Origin: an uncultured Gemmatimonadota bacterium
GTDB lineage: Bacteria > JAAXHH01
Direction: 5' to 3'
Assembly: GCA_951812955.1 (NCBI GenBank)
Contig: OX638340.1
Coordinates: forward strand, 192,001 to 256,000
Length of the DNA: 64,000 bases
How positions within the stretch are numbered: position 1 is the stretch's first letter; each line of letters opens with the position of its first letter. This document shows, in pieces, positions 3,367 through 59,204 of this stretch. Below the pieces are notes generated by a model. The model saw nothing but the letters and a program-made list of their open reading frames with translations. It was not told the DNA's origin and did not search any database. The translations under genes were made by a program, and so were the position numbers.

Positions 3367-3951
3367 GTGCAACCCATGGCAATCGTCGTTGAAGCACGCA
3401 AGATGACCCTGGCGGAACGGCTGTACCTGCCGGCGGTGATCAAGGGCATGCTCCTTACCCTGACCCACCTGTTCAAGAAAAAGGTCACGATGCAGTACCC
3501 TGAGGTGCAGAAGGTCCTGCCGCCCGGATACCGCGGCGCCCACCGGCTCAACAAGGATGAGCAGGACCGGATCAAGTGCGTGGCCTGTGAAATGTGCGCC
3601 GTGGCCTGCCCCGCCGATTGCATCACCATCGAAGGCACGGAAACCGAGTGGGACGACCGGGAAAAGATCCCGCGCACCTTCCAGATCGACATGCTCCGGT
3701 GCATTTTCTGCGGCATGTGCGTGGAGGCCTGCCCGGAGGACGCCATCGATATGACGGACAACATCGATCTCGTGGCCACGACACGGGAAGAAATGATCTG
3801 GGACCGGGATCGGCTGCTGAAGAACTACGACGACACCCGGAACCAGGAGGGCACGCTAGGCCAGGTCCTTCGAAAGAGCCGGAAGGCTTTTACGCGACCC
3901 AGGGGAGACCAGCTTCCAGCTCCGGGCGGTCCGGGCGGTCATACGCATTGA
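3367..3951 (+). CDS. nuoI: NADH-quinone oxidoreductase subunit I (2x[4Fe-4S] ferredoxin)
   Basis: Two CxxCxxCxxxCP motifs (CVACEMCAVACP, CIFCGMCVEACP); operon position. Confidence 0.9.
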   Translation: MQPMAIVVEARKMTLAERLYLPAVIKGMLLTLTHLFKKKVTMQYPEVQKVLPPGYRGAHRLNKDEQDRIKCVACEMCAVACPADCITIEGTETEWDDREKIPRTFQIDMLRCIFCGMCVEACPEDAIDMTDNIDLVATTREEMIWDRDRLLKNYDDTRNQEGTLGQVLRKSRKAFTRPRGDQLPAPGGPGGHTH

Positions 3952-4866: not shown

Positions 4867-6792
4867 ATGACCGAATCCTTCAGCTACGTCTGGCTGATCC
4901 CCTTCCTGCCCCTGCTGGGCGCATTCATCAACGTATTCTGCAACCGGAATCCCCGGGTGTCCGGAATGATCGCCTGCGCCGCGGTGGCCACGTCCTTCCT
5001 GCTCGTGCTGGCCGTCTTCTTCCAGCTCATCGGGCTGCCGGCCGGGGAACGCAGCGTCGACGTGGTCGTCTATTCGTGGATAACGACCGGTACCTTCGCG
5101 GTGGACGTGGCCTTCCTGATCGATCCGCTTTCGACGGTCATGATGCTGGTGGTGACCGGCGTCGGACTGCTGATCCACGTCTATTCCATCGGATACATGG
5201 GCAAGGACACGTGCTGCGTCCGGTATTTCTCCTACCTGAACCTGTTCATGTTCGCCATGCTCATCCTCGTGATGGGCAACAACTTCCTCCTGATGTTCGT
5301 AGGCTGGGAGGGCGTCGGCCTCTGTTCCTACCTGCTGATCGGCTTCTGGTGCGAAAGGCAGTCCGCGGCCAACGCGGGCATGAAGGCCTTCGTGGTGAAC
5401 CGCGTCGGTGATTTCGCCTTCATCCTCGGCCTGCTCCTGATTTTCCTCTATGCCGGTTCGCTGACCTACGCCGACGTGTTCGCGGTAGACCCGAACGTAC
5501 TCGCCCCGGTCATCACTGCGATCACCCTGCTGCTCTTCATCGGGGCCATGGGCAAGTCCGCCCAGGTCCCCCTCCACGTCTGGCTTCCGGACGCCATGGA
5601 AGGCCCCACGCCGGTCAGCGCGCTGATTCACGCGGCCACCATGGTAACCGCTGGGGTGTACATGGTGGCCCGTTGCCACGCGCTCTTCGCGCAGTCAGCC
5701 ACGGCCATGACCGCCGTGGCCGTAGTCGGCGCGTTCACGGCCATTTTCGCCGCGTATATCGCCATGACCCAGTACGACATCAAACGCGTCCTCGCCTATT
5801 CCACCGTGAGCCAGCTGGGATACATGTTCCTGGCATGCGGTGTCGGTTATTTCACCGCGGGCATCTTCCACCTGGTCACCCACGCGTTTTTCAAGGCCCT
5901 GCTGTTCATGGGCGCGGGCAGCGTCATTCACGCCCTGGAACACGCCCTGGAAAAGGGCAAGGATCCACAGGACCTCCGCAACATGGGCGGGCTCAGCAGT
6001 CTGATGCCGGTAACCTATAAGTCCATGCTGCTGGCCACCCTGGCCATCGCGGGGATCGCGCCTTTCGCCGGATTCTTCAGCAAGGACCTGATCCTGCTGG
6101 GCGCCTTCGTCAACGCCCCCGTGCTGTGGGTAGTGGCCCTGGCCACCGCGGTAATGACCGCATTCTACATGTTCAGGCTGCTGTTCATGACCTTCGGCGG
6201 CAAGACCCGGATGAACCCGCCGGAGACGGAGAAGGTACACGAATCGTCCCGGGTCATTACCATACCTCTGGTCCTGCTGGCCATTCTTTCCACCGTGGGT
6301 GGTTTCATCGGTATTCCCCATGTTTTCGCGAAGGGCATGGACCGGTTCGGCGGATTCCTGGCTCCGGTGTTCTCCGGACTTCCGGAAGCGCCGGTTCCTT
6401 CTTCGAGCGTTGAACTGGCCCTGATGGTCCTGACTCTGCTGCTGGCCGCGGCCGGCATCTGGGGCGCCTACACGGTCTACATCCGGGGCAATACGGTTTT
6501 CGACCGCCTGGTTCCCCGCGCGCTGTATACGCTCTCGCTGAGGAAGTTCTACGTGGACGAGGTCTACGACGCCCTGATCGTCGGGCCGATCAGGAAGATT
6601 GCCTGGGGATTCTCACGCATCGTGGACGCCCTGATCATCGACGGCGGCCTGACCCTGGCCGCGCTCACGGTGCGCAGCGTGGGGAACGTGATCCGGTACT
6701 CGCAAACGGGTGTCGTTCAGCATTACGCGCTGATCATGGTCATCGGCGCACTGGTGGTAATCGTCTACGTCACCGGTTACCTGGGACCCTAA
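4867..6792 (+). CDS. nuoL: NADH-quinone oxidoreductase subunit L
   Basis: 641-aa antiporter-like subunit with long C-terminal extension; WLPDAMEGPTPVSALIHAATMVTAGVY motif. Confidence 0.9.
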   Translation: MTESFSYVWLIPFLPLLGAFINVFCNRNPRVSGMIACAAVATSFLLVLAVFFQLIGLPAGERSVDVVVYSWITTGTFAVDVAFLIDPLSTVMMLVVTGVGLLIHVYSIGYMGKDTCCVRYFSYLNLFMFAMLILVMGNNFLLMFVGWEGVGLCSYLLIGFWCERQSAANAGMKAFVVNRVGDFAFILGLLLIFLYAGSLTYADVFAVDPNVLAPVITAITLLLFIGAMGKSAQVPLHVWLPDAMEGPTPVSALIHAATMVTAGVYMVARCHALFAQSATAMTAVAVVGAFTAIFAAYIAMTQYDIKRVLAYSTVSQLGYMFLACGVGYFTAGIFHLVTHAFFKALLFMGAGSVIHALEHALEKGKDPQDLRNMGGLSSLMPVTYKSMLLATLAIAGIAPFAGFFSKDLILLGAFVNAPVLWVVALATAVMTAFYMFRLLFMTFGGKTRMNPPETEKVHESSRVITIPLVLLAILSTVGGFIGIPHVFAKGMDRFGGFLAPVFSGLPEAPVPSSSVELALMVLTLLLAAAGIWGAYTVYIRGNTVFDRLVPRALYTLSLRKFYVDEVYDALIVGPIRKIAWGFSRIVDALIIDGGLTLAALTVRSVGNVIRYSQTGVVQHYALIMVIGALVVIVYVTGYLGP

Positions 6793-12807: not shown

Positions 12808-12887
12808 TGCCGGTCCACTCGTATCCCGCCTGAATGGGCAGGCCGCCCGGATACCCGTAAGCGTCCCCTTTTTAAATCTCCTTCGAC

Positions 12888-14063: not shown

Positions 14064-15998
14064 ATGAACCTGTATCTCCGAATACTGTCCTATGTAAAGC
14101 CCTACTGGTACTTCATGGCCGGCGCCATGGTGTGCATGGCCTTCTTTGCGCTGACCAGCAGCGCAACGGTCTGGGTGGCCCTGCCCTTTCTGCAGACCCT
14201 GTTCGGCCATCAAACCGTACAGACGGACCAGTCCGGGCAGACCGGGCAAACCGTACAGACGGACCAGACCGGGCAGTCCGGGCAGACCGGGCAGTTCGAC
14301 TTGGCGCGGGATTCGGCGAACCGGTTGGAGCAACGGGCCGGGATGGCGGGCCTGCGCGAGTCGTTGAAGGATCGCACCAACGCCCTGATCACCCGGCCGA
14401 CCAGGCAGGCTACGCTGGAACGCCTCTGCCTGATCATCCTGTTCATCCTCCTGATCAAGAACATCAGCAGTTACCTGCAGGCCTACCTGATGGCCTACGC
14501 CGAGAACGGGGTCATCAAGGACCTACGGAACCATCTCTATATCCACCTTCACCGCCTTTCCCTGTCCTACTTCCACCGTGAACGCACGGGAGAGCTCATC
14601 TCCCGCGTGTCCTACGACGTCATGAAGATCAACGGGACGGTTTCCGCCGCCTTCGGGACGTTGATCAAGGAACCTATGCTGGTGGTGGTCTACCTCGCGA
14701 TCCTCTTGATCCTGAGCTGGCAATTGACGCTGGTCTCCCTGGTGCTTCTTCCCTTCAGCGTCCTCGTCATCACCACGGTGGGCAGGCGGCTGCGCCGGAG
14801 CAGCACCGCCTCACAGGAAGCCATGGCCGATCTGACCTCGACGCTCCAGGAGACCGTGGCCGGCGTACGGGTGGTCAAGGCCTTCAACATGGAATCCTTC
14901 GAGATCGGCAAGTTCAAGCGGCAGACCCAGCATTACTTCGCCACGCTGCTTCGACTGACCCACATGCACAACCTGGCCAGCCCCATCACGGAGATCCTGG
15001 GCAGCTTCGTCGGCCTGGCGATCCTCTGGTACGGCGGCCGGCAGGTCCTCGAAGGCGGCCTGCTTGCTCCGGAGGATTTCCTGACATTCTTTCTCGCCCT
15101 CTTTTCCATGATGAAACCGGTCAAGGAACTCGGACAGGTGCACAACCGAATCCAGGAGGGAATCGCGGCCGCCGACCGCGTGTTTTCGATCCTGGACACG
15201 GCGCCCGAAATCACGGACGCGCCCGAAGCGGAGCGGCTTCCCGACCTGCGGCGGGAAATCCGGTTCCACCGTGTTGCCTTCCGGTACGACAGGTCCGCCG
15301 AACCCGCCCTTGAGGATATCGATCTCGTGGTCCGATCGGGAGAGACCGTGGCCCTCGTGGGACCGAGCGGTGGTGGCAAGTCCACCCTGGTTGACCTCGT
15401 CGCACGGTTTTACGACCCGACCTGCGGGCGTATCGAGATAGATGGGAAAGACCTGCGTTCGGTCACCGTGGCGTCCCTCCGGGACAAGATGGGCATCGTG
15501 ACACAGGACGTGATCCTGTTCAACGACACGGTCCGCAACAATATCGCTTACGGCGTGCAGGACATGCCCGTGGACCGGATACAATCCGCCGCGGCTGCTG
15601 CCAACGCGGATGCCTTCATCGACCAGTTGCCCGATGGATACGAAACATATCTCGGGGAACGCGGCGTGCGTCTCTCCGGGGGCCAGCGCCAGCGTATCGC
15701 GATCGCAAGGGCCATCCTGAAGGATCCCCAGATCCTCATATTCGACGAGGCCACCTCCAGTCTGGATACCGAGTCCGAACTGCTGGTCCAGGAGGCCATC
15801 GACCGGTTGATGGCGGGGAGGACGGCCCTGGTCATCGCCCATCGCCTGTCGACCGTGCAGAAGGCGGACCGGGTGGTCGTGGTCGACCGTGGCCGTATCG
15901 TGCAGACCGGCGATCACGGATCGCTGATCCGGGAAGACGGCCTGTACCGGAAGCTCTACAATCTGCAGTTCCGGGACCAGGAACCCGTCGCGGAATAA
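14064..15998 (+). CDS. msbA: MsbA-like lipid A/glycolipid ABC exporter (fused TMD-NBD) with ~60-aa repeat-containing insertion in first extracytoplasmic loop
   Basis: Six-TM domain plus NBD with Walker A GPSGGGKST, signature LSGGQRQR, Walker B ILIFDEATS; 644 aa vs ~580 typical. Confidence 0.85.
   Translation: MNLYLRILSYVKPYWYFMAGAMVCMAFFALTSSATVWVALPFLQTLFGHQTVQTDQSGQTGQTVQTDQTGQSGQTGQFDLARDSANRLEQRAGMAGLRESLKDRTNALITRPTRQATLERLCLIILFILLIKNISSYLQAYLMAYAENGVIKDLRNHLYIHLHRLSLSYFHRERTGELISRVSYDVMKINGTVSAAFGTLIKEPMLVVVYLAILLILSWQLTLVSLVLLPFSVLVITTVGRRLRRSSTASQEAMADLTSTLQETVAGVRVVKAFNMESFEIGKFKRQTQHYFATLLRLTHMHNLASPITEILGSFVGLAILWYGGRQVLEGGLLAPEDFLTFFLALFSMMKPVKELGQVHNRIQEGIAAADRVFSILDTAPEITDAPEAERLPDLRREIRFHRVAFRYDRSAEPALEDIDLVVRSGETVALVGPSGGGKSTLVDLVARFYDPTCGRIEIDGKDLRSVTVASLRDKMGIVTQDVILFNDTVRNNIAYGVQDMPVDRIQSAAAAANADAFIDQLPDGYETYLGERGVRLSGGQRQRIAIARAILKDPQILIFDEATSSLDTESELLVQEAIDRLMAGRTALVIAHRLSTVQKADRVVVVDRGRIVQTGDHGSLIREDGLYRKLYNLQFRDQEPVAE
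14211..14294 (+). repeat. In-frame tandem repeat inside msbA encoding QTVQTDQ(S/T)GQTGQ units
   Basis: caaaccgtacagacggaccag...gggcagaccgggcag repeated twice with gggcag(a/t)ccgggcag sub-repeats. Confidence 0.85.
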
Positions 15999-16008
15999 CG
16001 GACGGTGG

Positions 16009-17154
16009 ATGATGTGGTATCCTATCGAGAAGCGTTTCAAGACCCGCGTGCTCAAATGGCTGGCAAGCCATCCCCTGGGACAGCGCCACGCGCCGCCCGG
16101 CACGGTCGATCCGGATGGCATCAACCGGATCCTGATCATCCGGCAGCATGATCAGTTCGGCGATTTCCTGCTGACCACCCCCGCGATCCGTGCGCTGCGT
16201 GCGCGGTTTCCCGATGCGCACCTGTCGCTGGTCGTCCGCGCCTACTTGTATCCCGTGGCCCAGGGCAATCCGGACGTGGACCAGGTCCTGGTTTTCCACG
16301 AATCCGGTTTTCGCTGGCGACCCCGAGACATCCGTTCTTTCGTCGACCTGATGCGCGGGTCCATCGACCTCGCCGTCGTGTTCAATACGGTATCCCATTC
16401 CTTCTCCAGCGACCTGATCGCCTGGCTCTCCGGCGCCCCCGTAGTCATGGGACCCGCGACACCCACTTTCGACCACCTCGATCATAATCCGTTCTACACG
16501 GTAAACGTACCCGTCAATCCCGAACCCAGGCACCAGATCCAGCGAAACCTGGACGTGGTCCGGTATGTAGGCGCGGATACGGAAGACCTTTCCTACGGTT
16601 ATGCCATGTCCGAGGATGAACGGGCCGGAGGACGTGAAGTAGTCGAAGGACAGGCAGGAGGTCCGACCGCGCCCGGAGGCCCCGTGGTCGCCGTCCACTT
16701 CGGAACCGGGGACGTGAGGAAACGATATCCGGTCGGACAACTGGCCCGCGTTTGCGACGAGTTGGCCACCCGACTCTCCGCCCGGATCCTGGTCATACCC
16801 GCACCGGGGGACGAGGCACTGCTGCGCGCCCTGTGCGACGCGGCATCCACGCCCCTGCGCGGGGTGCCGCCCATGTCGCTGCGGAGGGTAGCCGGAGTGC
16901 TCCACGCCGCGGATCTGCTCGTGTGCAATGATACCGGGGTACTTCACCTGGCCGCCGCGGTAGGAACGCCGACTCTTTCCTTCCACGCCACGAGTGATCC
17001 GGCCTACTGGAAACCGCCCGGCGCCGGGCACCGCGCCTTCTATGCCGTCAGCCGGCGGATCGATGAGATCCCGCCGGACCGGGTTTGCCGCGAAATTTCC
17101 GCCATGCTCGATGGTCCCCCCGGGGCCGGAACAGGCGAGATAATCCGCGTCTGA
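16009..17154 (+). CDS. Glycosyltransferase family 9 (LPS heptosyltransferase-like), paralog 1
   Basis: GT9 hallmarks: N-terminal ILIIRQHDQFGDFLLTTPAIRAL, C-terminal VCNDTGVLHLAAAVGTPTLSF. Confidence 0.8.
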   Translation: MMWYPIEKRFKTRVLKWLASHPLGQRHAPPGTVDPDGINRILIIRQHDQFGDFLLTTPAIRALRARFPDAHLSLVVRAYLYPVAQGNPDVDQVLVFHESGFRWRPRDIRSFVDLMRGSIDLAVVFNTVSHSFSSDLIAWLSGAPVVMGPATPTFDHLDHNPFYTVNVPVNPEPRHQIQRNLDVVRYVGADTEDLSYGYAMSEDERAGGREVVEGQAGGPTAPGGPVVAVHFGTGDVRKRYPVGQLARVCDELATRLSARILVIPAPGDEALLRALCDAASTPLRGVPPMSLRRVAGVLHAADLLVCNDTGVLHLAAAVGTPTLSFHATSDPAYWKPPGAGHRAFYAVSRRIDEIPPDRVCREISAMLDGPPGAGTGEIIRV

Positions 17155-21626: not shown

Positions 21627-22586
21627 ATGTCACAGGACGAACGATGCAGTATCGTGATACCGACGTGGAACGCGGGTTCATTGATCGAACGGTGCCTGCG
21701 CGCACTGAAGGATCACGGGGAAGCGGACCGTACGGAGATCGTAGTGGTCGACGACGGCGGCACGGACGACTCCGTCGAAAGGATAGAGGCGGCCTGTCCG
21801 GATGCGGTCCTGGCCAGGCACGGGGAGAACAGGGGTTTTGCCGCGGCGTGCAACACGGGCGTGGCCCGGGCTTCGCACGAAGTCGTGGTCCTGCTCAACA
21901 ACGACATCGTCGCCACCGGCCCGTTCCTGGATCCGCTCCTTTCCCATTTCCGGGATGACCGGGTGTTCGCTGTCAATCCCCGGGTCTACCACGCCTCGGA
22001 TCGGCGTCCCGGCGGCGGGTTGGTGCGGGGGTACATGCACTGCGGGCTGTTACGACTCAGGTGGGCCGAAAGCGAGTCCCGGCGCGAAGCCGGAGGACTC
22101 ACGCTGTACGCCAACGGGGCCGCCATGGCGGTTTCCAGGGAAAAGTACCTGTCGCTCGGTGGATTCGACACCCTGTACGCGCCCTTTTACTCGGAAGACC
22201 TGGACCTGTCCTACCGTGCGTACCAGCGGGGATGGACCGTGCAATATGAACCGGAAAGCCGGCTTGACCACGATCACGGCGCCACGATCGGCGCCCGACA
22301 TGATCAGACCCGCATCGACCGGGTCAGCATGAGAAACCGGATCCTCTTCGTGTGGCGCAACGTACGGGACGGGCGGTACCTGGCCGGTCATGTCCTTTGG
22401 ATGATCGCCCGCTCGTTCGGCGCGATGCTGAAGGGCGATCTGGCCTTTCTTGGGGCGCTTGTGGACGCGACGGCCCGGTGGGGCGCGGTGATGAAGCGGC
22501 GGCGGTCCGATCAGGAACCCGTGGTCTCCGACCGCGAGATCCTGCGATCCACATCCAGGTGGGCCGGTCGCGAACAGGCCGGATAG
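21627..22586 (+). CDS. Glycosyltransferase family 2 (larger GT-A type)
   Basis: CSIVIPTWNAG...VVVDDGGTDDS...LLNNDIV...YSEDLDLSYR (DxD and ED motifs). Confidence 0.75.
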   Translation: MSQDERCSIVIPTWNAGSLIERCLRALKDHGEADRTEIVVVDDGGTDDSVERIEAACPDAVLARHGENRGFAAACNTGVARASHEVVVLLNNDIVATGPFLDPLLSHFRDDRVFAVNPRVYHASDRRPGGGLVRGYMHCGLLRLRWAESESRREAGGLTLYANGAAMAVSREKYLSLGGFDTLYAPFYSEDLDLSYRAYQRGWTVQYEPESRLDHDHGATIGARHDQTRIDRVSMRNRILFVWRNVRDGRYLAGHVLWMIARSFGAMLKGDLAFLGALVDATARWGAVMKRRRSDQEPVVSDREILRSTSRWAGREQAG

Positions 22587-22637
22587 TCGGATTCTGCGCG
22601 CGCTCGGATTCTGCACTTGCTCGGATTCTGCACGACA
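22587..22637 (+). repeat. Three contiguous 17-bp direct repeats (TCGGATTCTGC core) in GT2/GT9 intergenic region
   Basis: tcggattctgcgcgcgc / tcggattctgcacttgc / tcggattctgcacgaca back-to-back immediately upstream of the GT9 start at 22658. Confidence 0.9.
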
Positions 22638-39090: not shown

Positions 39091-40635
39091 TTGAAACAGC
39101 TTTCGAAATTGCTGGCCGCGTTACCTCAAAAAAAAGTCATCAGCCGGCTGAATGCCTCGAACCGGGCGGACCGGGCGGACCGGGCAGTCCAGGCGGACTA
39201 TGCGGACCATGCGGACCATGCGGACCAGGAGATTGGAACCATAGTCCATGACTCGAGGTCCGTAGAGCCAGGCGATGTTTTTGTCGCGCTCCGCGAGCCT
39301 TCGGGCCGCGACGGCCGCAGGTACGCCCGCGACGCGGTTGCACGGGGCGCTTCGGTAGTGGTACAGGAAAGCGAGGAGGGCCTGGATGACGCGATCGTGA
39401 TAAGCGTTCCGGACACTTCCAGGGCTCTGGGCTTGATGGCCGCGGCGTACTACGGTCAGCCGGCGACCGACCTTTGTCTGATCGGTATTACGGGGACCAA
39501 CGGAAAGACGACCGTGTCATTGCTGGTCGAGGCTATCCTTCGGGAATGTGGCTGGGCCGTGGGCGGGATCGGCACGCTGGGCAGCCGGTTCATGGGCAAT
39601 GTGCTCGACTGGAAACTGGGCCACACCACGCCCTATCCGATGGAGCTGCACGGCACCCTGAGGAAGATCCGGGACCGGGGAGGCGAATGCGTCGTCATGG
39701 AAGTATCCTCTCACAGCCTGGTCTGGCAACGCCTGTCCGGCCTGCGATTCACCACGGGCGTCTTTACGAATCTCTCCAGGGAACACCTGGACGACCACAA
39801 GACCTTCGACGCTTACAAGGAAGCGAAGATGGTGCTTTTCTCGAAATACCTCGAGGAGAAAGGCAACGCCGTCCTGAACATGGACGATCCGGCCTATGTC
39901 CATTTCAAGGACGCATCGCGCGCACAGGTGCGATCATACGGACTGGACAAGAAGGCTGACGTCCGCAGGGCGGGTCCAATAGGATACTATGCTGACCGGA
40001 CCGTCATGAAAGTGCAGATTCAATCCGGTCCCCCTTTCAACGTGACCTTGCCTCTCCTGGGTCGTTTCAACGCGTACAACGCCCTGGCAGCCATATCCGT
40101 GGGGCTGGGATTCGGCATCGACTGTGAACTGATGAGCCGGGCCATGTCACGAGTCAGGGTACCCGGCCGGCTTGAGCGCGTCGAGGCTGGACAGCCTTTC
40201 AACGTGCTCGTGGATTTCGCCCATACGCCCGACGCACTCGGCGCCGTACTGTCCGCCTGCCGGGAATGGACCCGTGGAAGCCTGACCGTCGTATTCGGTT
40301 GCGGCGGGGACCGTGATCCCGGCAAGCGGCCGCTGATGGCCCGTGCGGCGTCCACCCACGCCGACGTAGTCATCGTGACGACCGACAACCCGAGAACGGA
40401 ACCGCCCGACCGGATCATAAGAGATATCGAGCCGGGTCTCCTGCCCCACGTCCGGTCCCATATAGTCCAGGACCGCGGCGAAGCGATCCATAAGGCCCTC
40501 AGCGATGCCGGCGAAGGAGACACCGTGCTGATCGCCGGAAGAGGAGACACGGCCTACCAGATCGTTGGCGAATCGCAAATCGAGTTCGACGACCGGTTCA
40601 AGGCCAGGGAATGTCTCGAGGCGCACTATGGATAA
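39091..40635 (+). CDS. murE: UDP-MurNAc-L-Ala-D-Glu:meso-DAP ligase MurE (with ~25-aa repeat-rich N-terminal extension)
   Basis: GITGTNGKTT P-loop, DNPR and meso-DAP-type C-terminal motifs. Confidence 0.9.
   Translation: MKQLSKLLAALPQKKVISRLNASNRADRADRAVQADYADHADHADQEIGTIVHDSRSVEPGDVFVALREPSGRDGRRYARDAVARGASVVVQESEEGLDDAIVISVPDTSRALGLMAAAYYGQPATDLCLIGITGTNGKTTVSLLVEAILRECGWAVGGIGTLGSRFMGNVLDWKLGHTTPYPMELHGTLRKIRDRGGECVVMEVSSHSLVWQRLSGLRFTTGVFTNLSREHLDDHKTFDAYKEAKMVLFSKYLEEKGNAVLNMDDPAYVHFKDASRAQVRSYGLDKKADVRRAGPIGYYADRTVMKVQIQSGPPFNVTLPLLGRFNAYNALAAISVGLGFGIDCELMSRAMSRVRVPGRLERVEAGQPFNVLVDFAHTPDALGAVLSACREWTRGSLTVVFGCGGDRDPGKRPLMARAASTHADVVIVTTDNPRTEPPDRIIRDIEPGLLPHVRSHIVQDRGEAIHKALSDAGEGDTVLIAGRGDTAYQIVGESQIEFDDRFKARECLEAHYG
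39160..39227 (+). repeat. In-frame 9-nt tandem repeats in murE 5' region (ccgggcgga x3-like then gcggac(c/t)at x4) encoding RADRADRAVQADYADHADHAD
   Basis: aaccgggcggaccgggcggaccgggcag...gcggactatgcggaccatgcggaccatgcggaccag; preceded by an A8 homopolymer at 39129-39136. Confidence 0.85.
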
Positions 40636-58091: not shown

Positions 58092-58925
58092 ATGCATCCC
58101 ATACTTTTTGAGATCGGCCCACTGACTGTACGAACCTACGGCCTTTTGCTTGCCGTATCCTTCATGGTTGGGATTCTCCTGGCGCTTAGACGATCCAGGG
58201 CCCGTGGCTTGAACCAGAACAAGATGGTCAACATGAGCCTGCTCATCATGCTCACGGGCATCGTCGGCGCCAGGATCATGTATGTCATACCCCACTGGAA
58301 CGAGTTCAGTGCGAACCCCCTCGATATCATCAGTCCCTTTCAAAGCTCCGGTTCGATCGGTCTGACCGGATTGACCCTGTACGGCGGATTCATCGCGGCG
58401 GTCCTGGCATCCATACTGTACCTTCGCATGAACAGGCTGTCGGTATGGAAGGCCTGCGACGCCTTTGCACCGAGTATCGCCCTCGGTATCGGGATCAGCC
58501 GCGTCGGTTGCTTTATGAACGGCTGCTGTTTCGGACTTCCCACCGAGTCGGCCCTGGGTGTAGTCTTCCCGGCGTTCAGCGCGGCGGGCTCTTTCTATCC
58601 GGACGTCTCGCTTCATCCCGCCCAGCTGTACAACGCCGTACTGGGCTTCAGCCTCTTCGGCCTGTTGATGTGGCTGGACCGTAAGCCTCGATTCGACGGA
58701 TTCCTCTTTGCCATGCTGCTGATTACAGAACCCATCACTCGGTTTTTCGTCGATCTGTTCAGGTACTATGAATCCAGCATGACGCTGGGCAACCTGGGCG
58801 GCGCGGTCCTTTCGGTAAACCAGGGGATCAGTATCGTTTTGTGCGGCGTTGGGTTCCTCCTCCTGGGGTGGCTCAGAAACCGCGCCCGGCGACGTTCGGA
58901 TCGGAGTCGGCCCCGTCGTGCGTGA
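58092..58925 (+). CDS. lgt: Phosphatidylglycerol:prolipoprotein diacylglyceryl transferase
   Basis: Lgt signature region FPDVSLHPAQLYNAVLGFSLFGLLMWL and G-rich TM helices. Confidence 0.88.
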   Translation: MHPILFEIGPLTVRTYGLLLAVSFMVGILLALRRSRARGLNQNKMVNMSLLIMLTGIVGARIMYVIPHWNEFSANPLDIISPFQSSGSIGLTGLTLYGGFIAAVLASILYLRMNRLSVWKACDAFAPSIALGIGISRVGCFMNGCCFGLPTESALGVVFPAFSAAGSFYPDVSLHPAQLYNAVLGFSLFGLLMWLDRKPRFDGFLFAMLLITEPITRFFVDLFRYYESSMTLGNLGGAVLSVNQGISIVLCGVGFLLLGWLRNRARRRSDRSRPRRA

Positions 58926-58958
58926 CGTAATCCGGTACGGCGGTCCATTTTCTTTCGC

Positions 58959-59062
58959 GCTTCAGTCCAGCCATCATCCGTGCTGACGCGGGCCGATGAT
59001 CCGCCGGAACGCTTCAGTCCAGCCATCATCCTTGCTGACGCGGGCCGTTGATCCGCCGGAAC
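58959..59062 (+). repeat. 52-bp direct tandem repeat, 2 copies (2 mismatches) in lgt/comF intergenic region
   Basis: gcttcagtccagccatcatcc(g/t)tgctgacgcgggccg(a/t)tgatccgccggaac at 58959-59010 and 59011-59062. Confidence 0.9.
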
Positions 59063-59204
59063 GATTACGCCGGTATCTCGCACAATATGCGAGAAACGGG
59101 CTGCGGTTATAGACTGATATAAGAAAGGAACCGCTGGAAACAGGTTTCGCTTCGACGGACGCGCCGGTCTTCGGTGATCCCCTTCCTATACGAATCGATC
59201 GTGC

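What the first reader, a model, noticed from the sequence alone, without database searches (positions are those of the whole stretch)
14211..14294. Tandem-repeat insertion (QTVQTDQ-S/T-GQTGQ units) in the first extracytoplasmic loop of the MsbA-like exporter
Relative to canonical MsbA (~580 aa), this 644-aa protein carries a ~60-aa insertion between TM1 and TM2. Its first half is an in-frame DNA tandem repeat (about 36 nt repeated, with nested gggcag(a/t)ccgggcag sub-repeats) encoding a Q/T/G-rich low-complexity segment. Such repeats are slippage-prone and in-frame, so copy number could vary between strains and alter a periplasm-facing loop of a glycolipid flippase.
Basis: seen in the sequence. 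Interest (0 to 1): 0.5.

Follow-up and report, generated by a model that had tools for sequence, protein, structure and literature searches.

The report
Variable 9-nt repeat in exporter loop
A short in-frame DNA repeat encoding a floppy Gly/Gln-rich stretch sits in the outward-facing loop of an MsbA-like lipid exporter and changes length between close relatives, which is an ordinary slippage-driven coding repeat and not a new kind of system.

Summary
Window 14205-14294 encodes ten x-y-Q triplets (residues 48-77) of a 644-aa MsbA-like ABC half-transporter. It consists of a 9-nt unit (NCC-GGG-CAG) plus a recent 36-nt higher-order duplication (34/36 identical).

The tract lies between TM1 and TM2, and AlphaFold predicts it as disordered. 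In 40 distinct tracts from relatives at least 86% identical, it has 6-16 triplets and always changes in whole 9-nt units. Proteins 98-99.5% identical outside the tract carry 6, 10 or 11 triplets.

Two corrections apply:
- The long TM1-TM2 loop is not special to this protein. It occurs across the homologous family (Zixibacteria, KSB1, Calditrichota and others) as a variable first half plus a conserved pre-TM2 segment. Only this clade fills the variable half with triplet repeats.
- The same 9-mer family (WCCGGGCRG) forms variable arrays in other frames or on the other strand in cytoplasmic MurE, in the neighbouring GT9 glycosyltransferase and in intergenic DNA. It also forms arrays in many unrelated high-GC metagenome contigs.

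The best reading is a near-neutral slippage-generated spacer. It is a new member of a known kind, and interest is modest.

The parts
14064..15998 (+). MsbA-like ABC half-transporter gene (644 aa; TMD + NBD)
   Evidence: PF00664 + PF00005. Best NCBIfam match is TIGR02203 MsbA at 571.5 bits, below the 602 cutoff. PDB MsbA chains match at E~1e-111. Foldseek top hits are MsbA structures.
14109..14204 (+). Approximate coding region of TM1 (about residues 16-47), ending in the conserved ALPFLQTLF
   Evidence: AF2 helix 2-47. Motif conserved across the clade.
14205..14294 (+). Hypervariable triplet tract: ten x-y-Q units (residues 48-77), a 9-nt coding minisatellite with unit NCC-GGG-CAG
   Evidence: TRF period 9 and 36. 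Codon view. AF2 coil with pLDDT ~40. 6-16 units in relatives, no partial units.
14211..14246 (+). Higher-order 36-nt repeat, copy 1 (QTVQTDQSGQTG)
   Evidence: Absent as a second copy in L001/P0133, which are 98.4-98.7% identical outside the tract.
14247..14282 (+). Higher-order 36-nt repeat, copy 2 (QTVQTDQTGQSG), 34/36 identical to copy 1
   Evidence: The two-copy state is also seen in P0127, P0132, P0134 and L054.
14295..14402 (+). Conserved second half of the TM1-TM2 loop (residues 78-113, FDLARDSANRLEQRAGMAGLRESLKDRTNALITRPTRQ)
   Evidence: Nearly unchanged across the clade. AF2 helices 77-91 (low confidence) and 94-109 (pLDDT 70-80). Family consensus R..LK........G..R...L.RLC.
14403..14549 (+). 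TM2 (residues 114-162); L118, R120 and C122 near-invariant in the family
   Evidence: AF2 helix 114-162. Query 115 aligns to E. coli MsbA residue 61. Conservation list.
39161..39229 (+). Second array of the same 9-mer family, in frame near the N-terminus of MurE (NRADRADRAVQADYADHADHADQ), read in a different frame from msbA
   Evidence: TRF period 9 x 7.7. Sequence and ORF. Copy number varies among clade MurE orthologs and is absent from more distant ones.

Best explanation
The tract is a coding minisatellite. A 9-nt unit (NCC-GGG-CAG, encoding x-Gly-Gln) expands and contracts by replication slippage or unequal recombination, always in whole units so the frame is kept. In the window's lineage a 36-nt block of four units has in addition been duplicated recently.

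It encodes an intrinsically disordered Gly/Gln/Thr/Pro/Ala-rich spacer in the first periplasmic loop of an MsbA-like ABC exporter. The spacer lies between the top of TM1 and a conserved loop segment that precedes TM2. That part of the loop is variable and unstructured in the whole protein family, so it tolerates length change, and the copy-number variation is most likely nearly neutral.

Shown: the repeat, its frame, its unit-wise length polymorphism among close relatives, the family-wide long loop, and similar arrays in unrelated genes. Inferred: the slippage mechanism, the disorder, the periplasmic location (by homology to MsbA topology) and neutrality.
For: Repeat structure and frame. Across 40 distinct tracts in relatives at least 86% identical there are 6-16 triplets and never a partial unit. 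Position 3 is Q in 72%, position 2 is G in 57%, and position 1 is T/G/A/S/P. The composition has almost no hydrophobic or aromatic residues.

Proteins 98.0-99.5% identical outside the tract carry 6, 10 or 11 triplets. Lineage-specific homogeneous runs indicate expansion in place: (GPG)3-4 in L007/L011, (GPT)3 in L003, (GQP)3 in L009 and (GQAGQG)3.6 in L012.

AF2 gives pLDDT ~40 and coil for residues 48-76 within an otherwise confident MsbA-like fold. Homologs at 50-73% identity from other phyla all have a 50-90-aa TM1-TM2 loop with a non-conserved first half.

The same 9-mer family (WCCGGGCRG) forms variable arrays elsewhere: in another frame in cytoplasmic MurE; on the opposite strand as (PPG)1-9 at the GT9 N-terminus; in the GT9 interdomain loop; and in intergenic DNA upstream of GT4. 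It also occurs in at least 120 unrelated high-GC metagenome contigs in many frames.
Against: Gly and Gln persist through synonymous codon changes (GGG/GGA/GGT/GGC; CAG/CAA), and the tract length stays within 6-16 units. Either could reflect selection on composition or length rather than pure neutrality.

No read-level data were available, so within-population instability was not measured. Predicted DNA secondary structure is only weakly better than shuffles (sense strand z = -2.25; other strands not significant), so no special slippage-promoting structure was demonstrated. Disorder rests on an AF2 confidence score and composition, not on experiment.
Confidence: 0.75

Rival explanations
1. Adaptive length tuning. 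The triplet number is under diversifying or opposing selection because the spacer sets the reach or mobility of the conserved periplasmic loop segment (residues 78-113). This would be analogous to the intragenic repeat tract of E. coli TolA, where copy number changes stress tolerance.
For: The tract is in an envelope protein and faces the periplasm. Its length is bounded at 6-16 units and Gly/Gln are kept through synonymous changes. The segment it tethers is conserved family-wide. A precedent exists: the TolA repeat number modulates detergent, osmotic and phage tolerance (PMC3477136).
Against: Similar variable arrays sit in cytoplasmic MurE and GT9 and in intergenic DNA of the same genomes, so variability does not need a periplasm-specific reason. 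No phenotype data exist. The corresponding region in other phyla is simply unconserved.
Confidence: 0.15
2. Structural Gly-X-Y element. The tract forms a collagen-like or polyproline-II rod that projects the loop into the periplasm.
For: Gly recurs every third residue in the homogeneous part. Some relatives carry GPT, GPG or GQP runs. GPT triplets also occur in the collagen-like region of Bacillus BclA (own knowledge).
Against: Only 6-16 triplets are present, and they are interrupted by V/D/E at the Gly position (G in only 57% of units). There is no Pfam Collagen hit. ABC half-transporters are dimers, not trimers (established knowledge). AF2 gives no structure.
Confidence: 0.03
3. DNA- or RNA-level function. 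The G-rich sense strand (GGG every 9 nt) forms a G-quadruplex or other structure that regulates transcription or translation of the exporter, or acts as a recombination hotspot.
For: Ten of 22 relatives have a canonical G3-N1-7 x4 motif on the sense strand of the tract, against only 2 such motifs in the whole 64-kb window. The sense-strand DNA fold has z = -2.25.
Against: The window's own tract and 11 other relatives lack a canonical quadruplex motif, so it is not a conserved property. The other strands and the MurE array fold no better than shuffles. There is no Rfam match.
Confidence: 0.05
4. Assembly or sequencing artefact: the duplication is a mis-assembly of a repeat.
For: Short tandem repeats can be mis-assembled. 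One short-read relative (L014) has a run of N right after the tract, although the tool notes that some stretches of that collection are masked.
Against: The two-copy architecture recurs with small differences in independent assemblies (P0127, P0132, P0134, L054). The exact window protein is on record on a 3.81-Mb contig. The 84-nt array is shorter than any read type, and all variants keep the frame.
Confidence: 0.02

Closest known systems
Intragenic (coding) variable-number tandem repeats in bacterial envelope proteins, e.g. the E. coli tolA repeat tract (Zhou, Michiels and Aertsen 2012, PMC3477136)
   Same: In-frame head-to-tail DNA repeats inside a periplasm-exposed, extended part of an inner-membrane-anchored envelope protein. 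Copy number differs among closely related strains, and changes occur in whole units.
   Different: The unit here is 9 nt (3 aa), with 6-16 copies, against 2-39 copies tested in TolA. It sits in a loop of a polytopic ABC exporter, not a long periplasm-spanning domain. No phenotype or rate has been measured here; the TolA work showed RecA-dependent contraction at 6.9e-5 and stress phenotypes.
MsbA, the lipid A-core flippase (TIGR02203; PDB 3b5w, 6bpl, 9bd6 and others)
   Same: Same half-transporter architecture and fold. It is the best family and structure match, and the gene sits in a glycosyltransferase cluster next to a GT9 heptosyltransferase-like gene.
   Different: The score is below the equivalog cutoff even with the loop removed (571-582 against 602 bits). 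It carries a ~64-aa TM1-TM2 loop that solved MsbA structures lack. No lpx genes were identified among the window genes examined.
PglK external helix in the TM1-TM2 periplasmic loop (Perez et al. 2015, as summarised in PMC4900756)
   Same: An extra helical element is predicted in the same loop of a lipid-linked-glycan ABC flippase relative (AF2 helices 77-91 and 94-109).
   Different: The helices here are not significantly amphipathic (hydrophobic moment within shuffles), are charged, and are predicted with low to moderate confidence. PglK has no repeat tract. The resemblance is positional only.
Gly-X-Y triplet (collagen-like) repeats with length polymorphism, e.g. Bacillus anthracis BclA GPT repeats (own knowledge)
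   Same: 9-nt units, Gly periodicity, strain-to-strain copy-number variation, and identical GPT triplets in one relative (L003).
   Different: The tract is far shorter and interrupted, has no trimerisation context, has no Pfam Collagen match, and is predicted disordered.

Membership tests
MsbA lipid A exporter (NCBIfam TIGR02203 equivalog) | Whole-protein score at or above the curated cutoff (602 bits) | tested here: not met
   571.5 bits for the native protein; 574.3 with the tract deleted and 581.9 with residues 48-108 deleted.
MsbA lipid A exporter (NCBIfam TIGR02203 equivalog) | ABC type IV exporter half-transporter: six-helix TMD followed by an NBD, with the fold closest to MsbA | tested here: met
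   PF00664 + PF00005. PDB MsbA chains at E~1e-111 to 1e-116. Foldseek top hits are MsbA at E~2e-38, TM up to 0.82.
MsbA lipid A exporter (NCBIfam TIGR02203 equivalog) | LPS/lipid A biosynthetic context and lipid A-core flipping activity | tested here: inconclusive
   Neighbours are GT4, a GT9 heptosyltransferase-like gene, GT2s, a radical SAM-SPASM protein and a polyprenyl synthase. No lpx gene was identified among the proteins scanned. Activity is not testable here.
Coding variable-number tandem repeat (intragenic TR, TolA type) | Head-to-tail DNA repeat, unit a multiple of 3, in frame within a gene | tested here: met
Coding variable-number tandem repeat (intragenic TR, TolA type) | Copy number differs among closely related strains by whole units | tested here: met
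   6, 10 or 11 triplets in proteins 98-99.5% identical elsewhere. 40 distinct tracts, 6-16 units, remainder always 0.
Coding variable-number tandem repeat (intragenic TR, TolA type) | Copy number affects a phenotype | not testable with these tools
   Needs genetics; see next steps.
Phase-variable contingency locus (frameshifting simple sequence repeat) | Unit length not divisible by 3, so copy change switches the reading frame on or off | tested here: not met
   The unit is 9 nt, and all 40 variants keep the frame and full-length protein.
Collagen-like triple-helix repeat (Pfam PF01391) | Long uninterrupted Gly-X-Y run detected by the Collagen model | tested here: not met
   No Collagen hit at E<=0.001. 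Gly occupies its position in only 57% of units.
PglK-type external helix | Short membrane-parallel helix in the TM1-TM2 loop that contacts the lipid tail | tested here: inconclusive
   AF2 predicts helices 77-91 and 94-109 (pLDDT ~42-80). The hydrophobic moment is not above shuffles (fraction reaching the observed value 0.21 and 0.72).

The most novel reading that the evidence does not exclude
In this lineage of uncultured bacteria (MAGs labelled Latescibacterota or Gemmatimonadota), 9-nt WCCGGGCRG minisatellites may act as a genome-wide source of rapid protein-length variation concentrated in envelope-biogenesis genes (the MsbA-like exporter, the GT9 glycosyltransferase, MurE). In that case the exporter's periplasmic spacer length would be tuned by selection, as in TolA, and would change how the conserved loop module engages its lipid substrate or a periplasmic partner.
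Probability: 0.1. Interest if true: 0.55.

Novelty: new member of a known kind. Interest (0 to 1): 0.3.

Why it matters
If the length changes are neutral, the value is practical. The tract is a ready-made strain marker (VNTR) for these uncultured bacteria. It is also a warning that protein-length differences and clustering artefacts in this family come from a repeat.

It also documents that the MsbA-like exporters of the Zixibacteria, KSB1, Calditrichota and Latescibacterota-type lineages share a long first periplasmic loop with a conserved pre-TM2 segment that solved MsbA structures lack. That loop may be relevant to how they handle their substrate.

If the length is selected, it would be a second example, after TolA, of repeat-number tuning of an envelope machine, this time inside an ABC flippase.

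Tried and rejected
- **Clade-specific 9-mer element.** I considered this because msbA, murE, GT9 and intergenic arrays share WCCGGGCRG in different frames and strands, and the 9-mer is about 4-fold enriched in the window (27 against 6.6 expected). I rejected it as clade-specific: three tandem copies occur in at least 120 metagenome contigs of very different GC content and origin. The enrichment test also does not preserve codon usage.
- **Amphipathic, PglK-like external helix.** The hydrophobic moment is not above shuffles.
- **Slippage-promoting hairpins.** Support is weak for the sense strand only (z = -2.25) and absent for the antisense strand and the MurE array.
- **G-quadruplex motif.** Present in 10 of 22 relatives but absent from the window.
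- **The loop as the reason for missing the MsbA cutoff.** Deleting it raises the score by only 3-10 bits.
- **Source lookup.** The look-up of encoding contigs for the exact protein returned nothing, although the sequence is in the protein collection.
- **Literature.** A search for a described MsbA periplasmic-loop insertion found nothing relevant. The Brucella paper's 'periplasmic loop' refers to WadA.
- **Rfam.** A scan of the window gave no match.

Full report
**Observation**

The sequence at 14205-14294 is a genuine tandem repeat. Tandem Repeats Finder reports a 36-nt period (14211-14289, 2.2 copies, 93% matches, score 137) with a nested 9-nt period (14229-14294, 7.3 copies). Read directly, copy 1 (14211-14246) and copy 2 (14247-14282) differ at 2 of 36 positions and are followed by CAGACCGGGCAG. 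The sub-repeat GGGCAGNCCGGGCAG occurs 5 times in the window against 0.09 expected, and three of those are here.

The array is in frame in ORF 14064-15998 (+, 644 aa). It encodes ten x-y-Q triplets, GHQ-TVQ-TDQ-SGQ-TGQ-TVQ-TDQ-TGQ-SGQ-TGQ (residues 48-77).

**The protein**

It has an ABC exporter membrane domain and an ABC ATPase domain. Its best family match is MsbA (TIGR02203, 571.5 bits), just below the curated cutoff of 602. Removing the tract or the whole extra loop raises the score only to 574-582 bits, so 'MsbA-like' is accurate but equivalog membership is not met.

Solved MsbA chains match at E~1e-111 to 1e-116, with query residue 115 aligned to E. coli MsbA residue 61 at the start of TM2. 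An AlphaFold2 model (mean pLDDT 78) has MsbA structures as its best Foldseek matches. The model gives:
- helix 2-47 (TM1);
- coil at pLDDT ~40 for residues 48-76;
- helices 77-91 (low confidence) and 94-109 (pLDDT 70-80);
- TM2 from residue 114.

By the established topology of this fold (N-terminus and NBD cytoplasmic), the TM1-TM2 loop is periplasmic. This is an inference from homology and was not tested.

The gene lies between a GT4 glycosyltransferase and a GT9 heptosyltransferase-like gene. Nearby are a radical SAM-SPASM protein, GT2s, a polyprenyl synthase and a nuo operon.

**Is the insertion special to this protein?**

No. Homologs at 50-73% identity, labelled Zixibacteria, KSB1, Calditrichota, Latescibacteria or 'bacterium', are 613-672 aa long. 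All carry a 50-90-residue TM1-TM2 loop. In a 78-sequence alignment the first half of that loop has no consensus. The part before TM2 does have one (R..LK........G..R...L.RLC), with L118, R120 and C122 near-invariant.

The loop is therefore an ancestral family feature made of a variable spacer plus a conserved module. What is specific to the window's clade is that the spacer is built from triplet repeats. Basal members at 73-82% identity have at most one or two proto-units (L013, L016, L017, P0012).

**Does copy number vary?**

Yes. A scan of species-representative genomes found 22 close relatives (86-96% identity) in MAGs labelled Latescibacterota, Gemmatimonadota or 'bacterium'. Members of two 90%-identity protein clusters added more.

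Among relatives at least 86% identical there are 40 distinct tracts of 6-16 triplets and never a partial unit. Across all 56 clade sequences, which include the more basal relatives, the extended segment takes lengths 20, 23... 53, all equal to 2 mod 3, with 43 distinct versions.

Position 3 is Q in 72% of units (otherwise P, E or R). Position 2 is G in 57% (otherwise V, Q, D or A). Position 1 is T/G/A/S/P. The composition is 28% G, 27% Q and 12% T, with almost no hydrophobic residues.

Proteins 98.0-99.5% identical to the window protein outside the tract carry 6 triplets (L001, P0133: one copy of the higher-order block), 10 triplets (window, P0127, P0132: two copies) or 11 triplets (P0134, L054: two copies plus one unit).

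Lineage-specific homogeneous runs show expansion in place: (GPG)3-4, (GPT)3, (GQP)3 and (GQAGQG)3.6. Independent assemblies reproduce the two-copy state with small differences, and the exact window protein is on record on a 3.81-Mb contig. An artefact is therefore very unlikely.

**DNA process or peptide function?**

The window holds a second 9-nt array at 39161-39229 (7.7 copies). It is in frame near the N-terminus of MurE, a cytoplasmic enzyme. It shares the string GACCGGGCAGTCC with the msbA tract but is read in another frame (DRAVQ instead of TGQS). MurE orthologs in the same clade carry from zero to about a dozen such units, as (ADQ)n, (GQA)n, (ADR)n or (DHT)n. More distant MurE proteins have none.

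In the relatives' 12-kb loci further arrays of the same 9-mer family appear:
- on the opposite strand as (PPG)1-9 at the N-terminus of the GT9 gene;
- in its interdomain loop;
- in the intergenic DNA upstream of GT4.

TRF rows for period-9 arrays of three or more copies number 32 in 324 kb of clade DNA and 4 in 404 kb of other taxa. These rows are not independent: about half are the msbA site itself, and the loci were chosen because of it.

WCCGGGCRG is enriched in the window (27 against 6.6 expected), but that test ignores codon usage. These had diverse GC content and origin and encoded (PPG)n, (GPG)n, (ADR)n, (SGQ)n, (TGQ)n and others.

This is therefore a generic GC-rich coding minisatellite, not a clade-specific element. 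Its presence in cytoplasmic proteins and non-coding DNA argues that the msbA tract needs no loop-specific explanation.

**Mechanism**

The most likely account (confidence about 0.75) is replication slippage or unequal recombination of a 9-nt unit within a region that tolerates any length because it is a disordered spacer. The frame is preserved because the unit is a multiple of three. The 36-nt duplication is a recent higher-order event in the window's sub-lineage.

Checks for a special structure were weak or negative:
- The sense-strand DNA fold has z = -2.25, and the other strands are not significant.
- A canonical G-quadruplex motif is present in 10 of 22 relatives but not in the window.
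- The post-tract helices are not significantly amphipathic, so a PglK-like external helix (PMC4900756) is only a positional analogy.

Two observations keep an adaptive reading alive at about 0.15. Gly and Gln persist through synonymous changes, and tract length is bounded. The precedent is E. coli tolA, where repeat number changes stress and phage tolerance and contraction is RecA-dependent (PMC3477136).

**Comparison, novelty and verdict**

The tract meets the defining features of a coding VNTR: it is in frame and shows unit-wise polymorphism among near-identical relatives. It is not a frameshifting contingency locus (the unit is divisible by 3). It is not a collagen domain (no Pfam hit, interrupted Gly periodicity).

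It is a new member of a known kind. Interest is modest (0.3). The most novel reading not excluded is selected length tuning as part of a lineage-wide minisatellite bias in envelope genes, which I rate at about 0.1.

Noticed in passing
window 39161-39229 (ORF 39091-40635 +, MurE): In-frame 9-nt array (7.7 copies) encoding NRADRADRAVQADYADHADHADQ near the MurE N-terminus. It shares GACCGGGCAGTCC with the msbA tract but is read in another frame. Clade orthologs vary from 0 to about 12 units as (ADQ)n, (GQA)n or (ADR)n.
   Followed up: yes
L018 7012-7091; L003 7012-7037; L014 7162-7239; window about 16085-16100: The GT9 heptosyltransferase-like gene just downstream of msbA carries (PPG)n at its N-terminus in relatives, up to 9 units in L018. 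The window has a single PPG. The unit CCGCCCGGT is the reverse complement of the MurE/msbA 9-mer.
   Followed up: partly
L014 7789-7918; L002 7579-7621; L022 7654-7693; L020 7610-7651; window about 16660-16700: A second variable array lies inside GT9, in the stretch before the conserved PVVAVHFGTGD motif. An example is (GPGAPE)n over 130 nt in L014. The window has only GGPTAPGGP there.
   Followed up: partly
L002 3721-3786; L014 3667-3770; L022 3682-3776; L004, L012 and L020 at about 3706-3768: Variable tandem arrays (periods 9, 18, 27 and 36, and a separate 15-nt unit GGAAGTGATGCCGGC) lie in the spacer between the radical SAM-SPASM gene and GT4 in relatives. The window has none there, only a single TCCGGGCGG at 12843-12851.
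   Followed up: partly
window 58958-59063: A 52-nt direct repeat (2.0 copies, 96%), mostly in the intergenic DNA after ORF 58092-58925. Each unit contains an internal inverted repeat (CATCATCC...GATGATCC). There is no Rfam match.
   Followed up: no
window 22587-22634: Three direct copies of TCGGATTCTGCAC spaced 17 nt apart, immediately after the GT2 ORF that ends at 22586 and before an ATG at about 22657. This could be a binding-site array.
   Followed up: no
window, whole (e.g. 3921-3938, 12843-12851, 16778-16786): The 9-mer WCCGGGCRG occurs 27 times on both strands against 6.6 +/- 2.4 expected from dinucleotide shuffles. About 18 of these are outside the arrays. This may only reflect codon usage.
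   Followed up: partly
L014 about 5230-5330: A short-read MAG relative has a run of N starting right after the msbA tract. This could be an assembly gap at the repeat or the collection's own masking; I cannot tell which.
   Followed up: no
window 14133-14135 and 14427-14429 (C24, C122): Two cysteines, one in TM1 and one at the periplasmic start of TM2, are at least 90% conserved across the 78-sequence family alignment, together with L118 and R120.
   Followed up: no
L086 6037-6072; L184 7-114; L181 3169-3195: Among the metagenome hits, L086 encodes ADQADQADQADRADRADRADRADQE, which resembles the clade's MurE tract. L184 and L181 carry (ADR)n or (VRA)n arrays directly before what look like ABC ATPase N-termini in unrelated organisms.
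   Followed up: no
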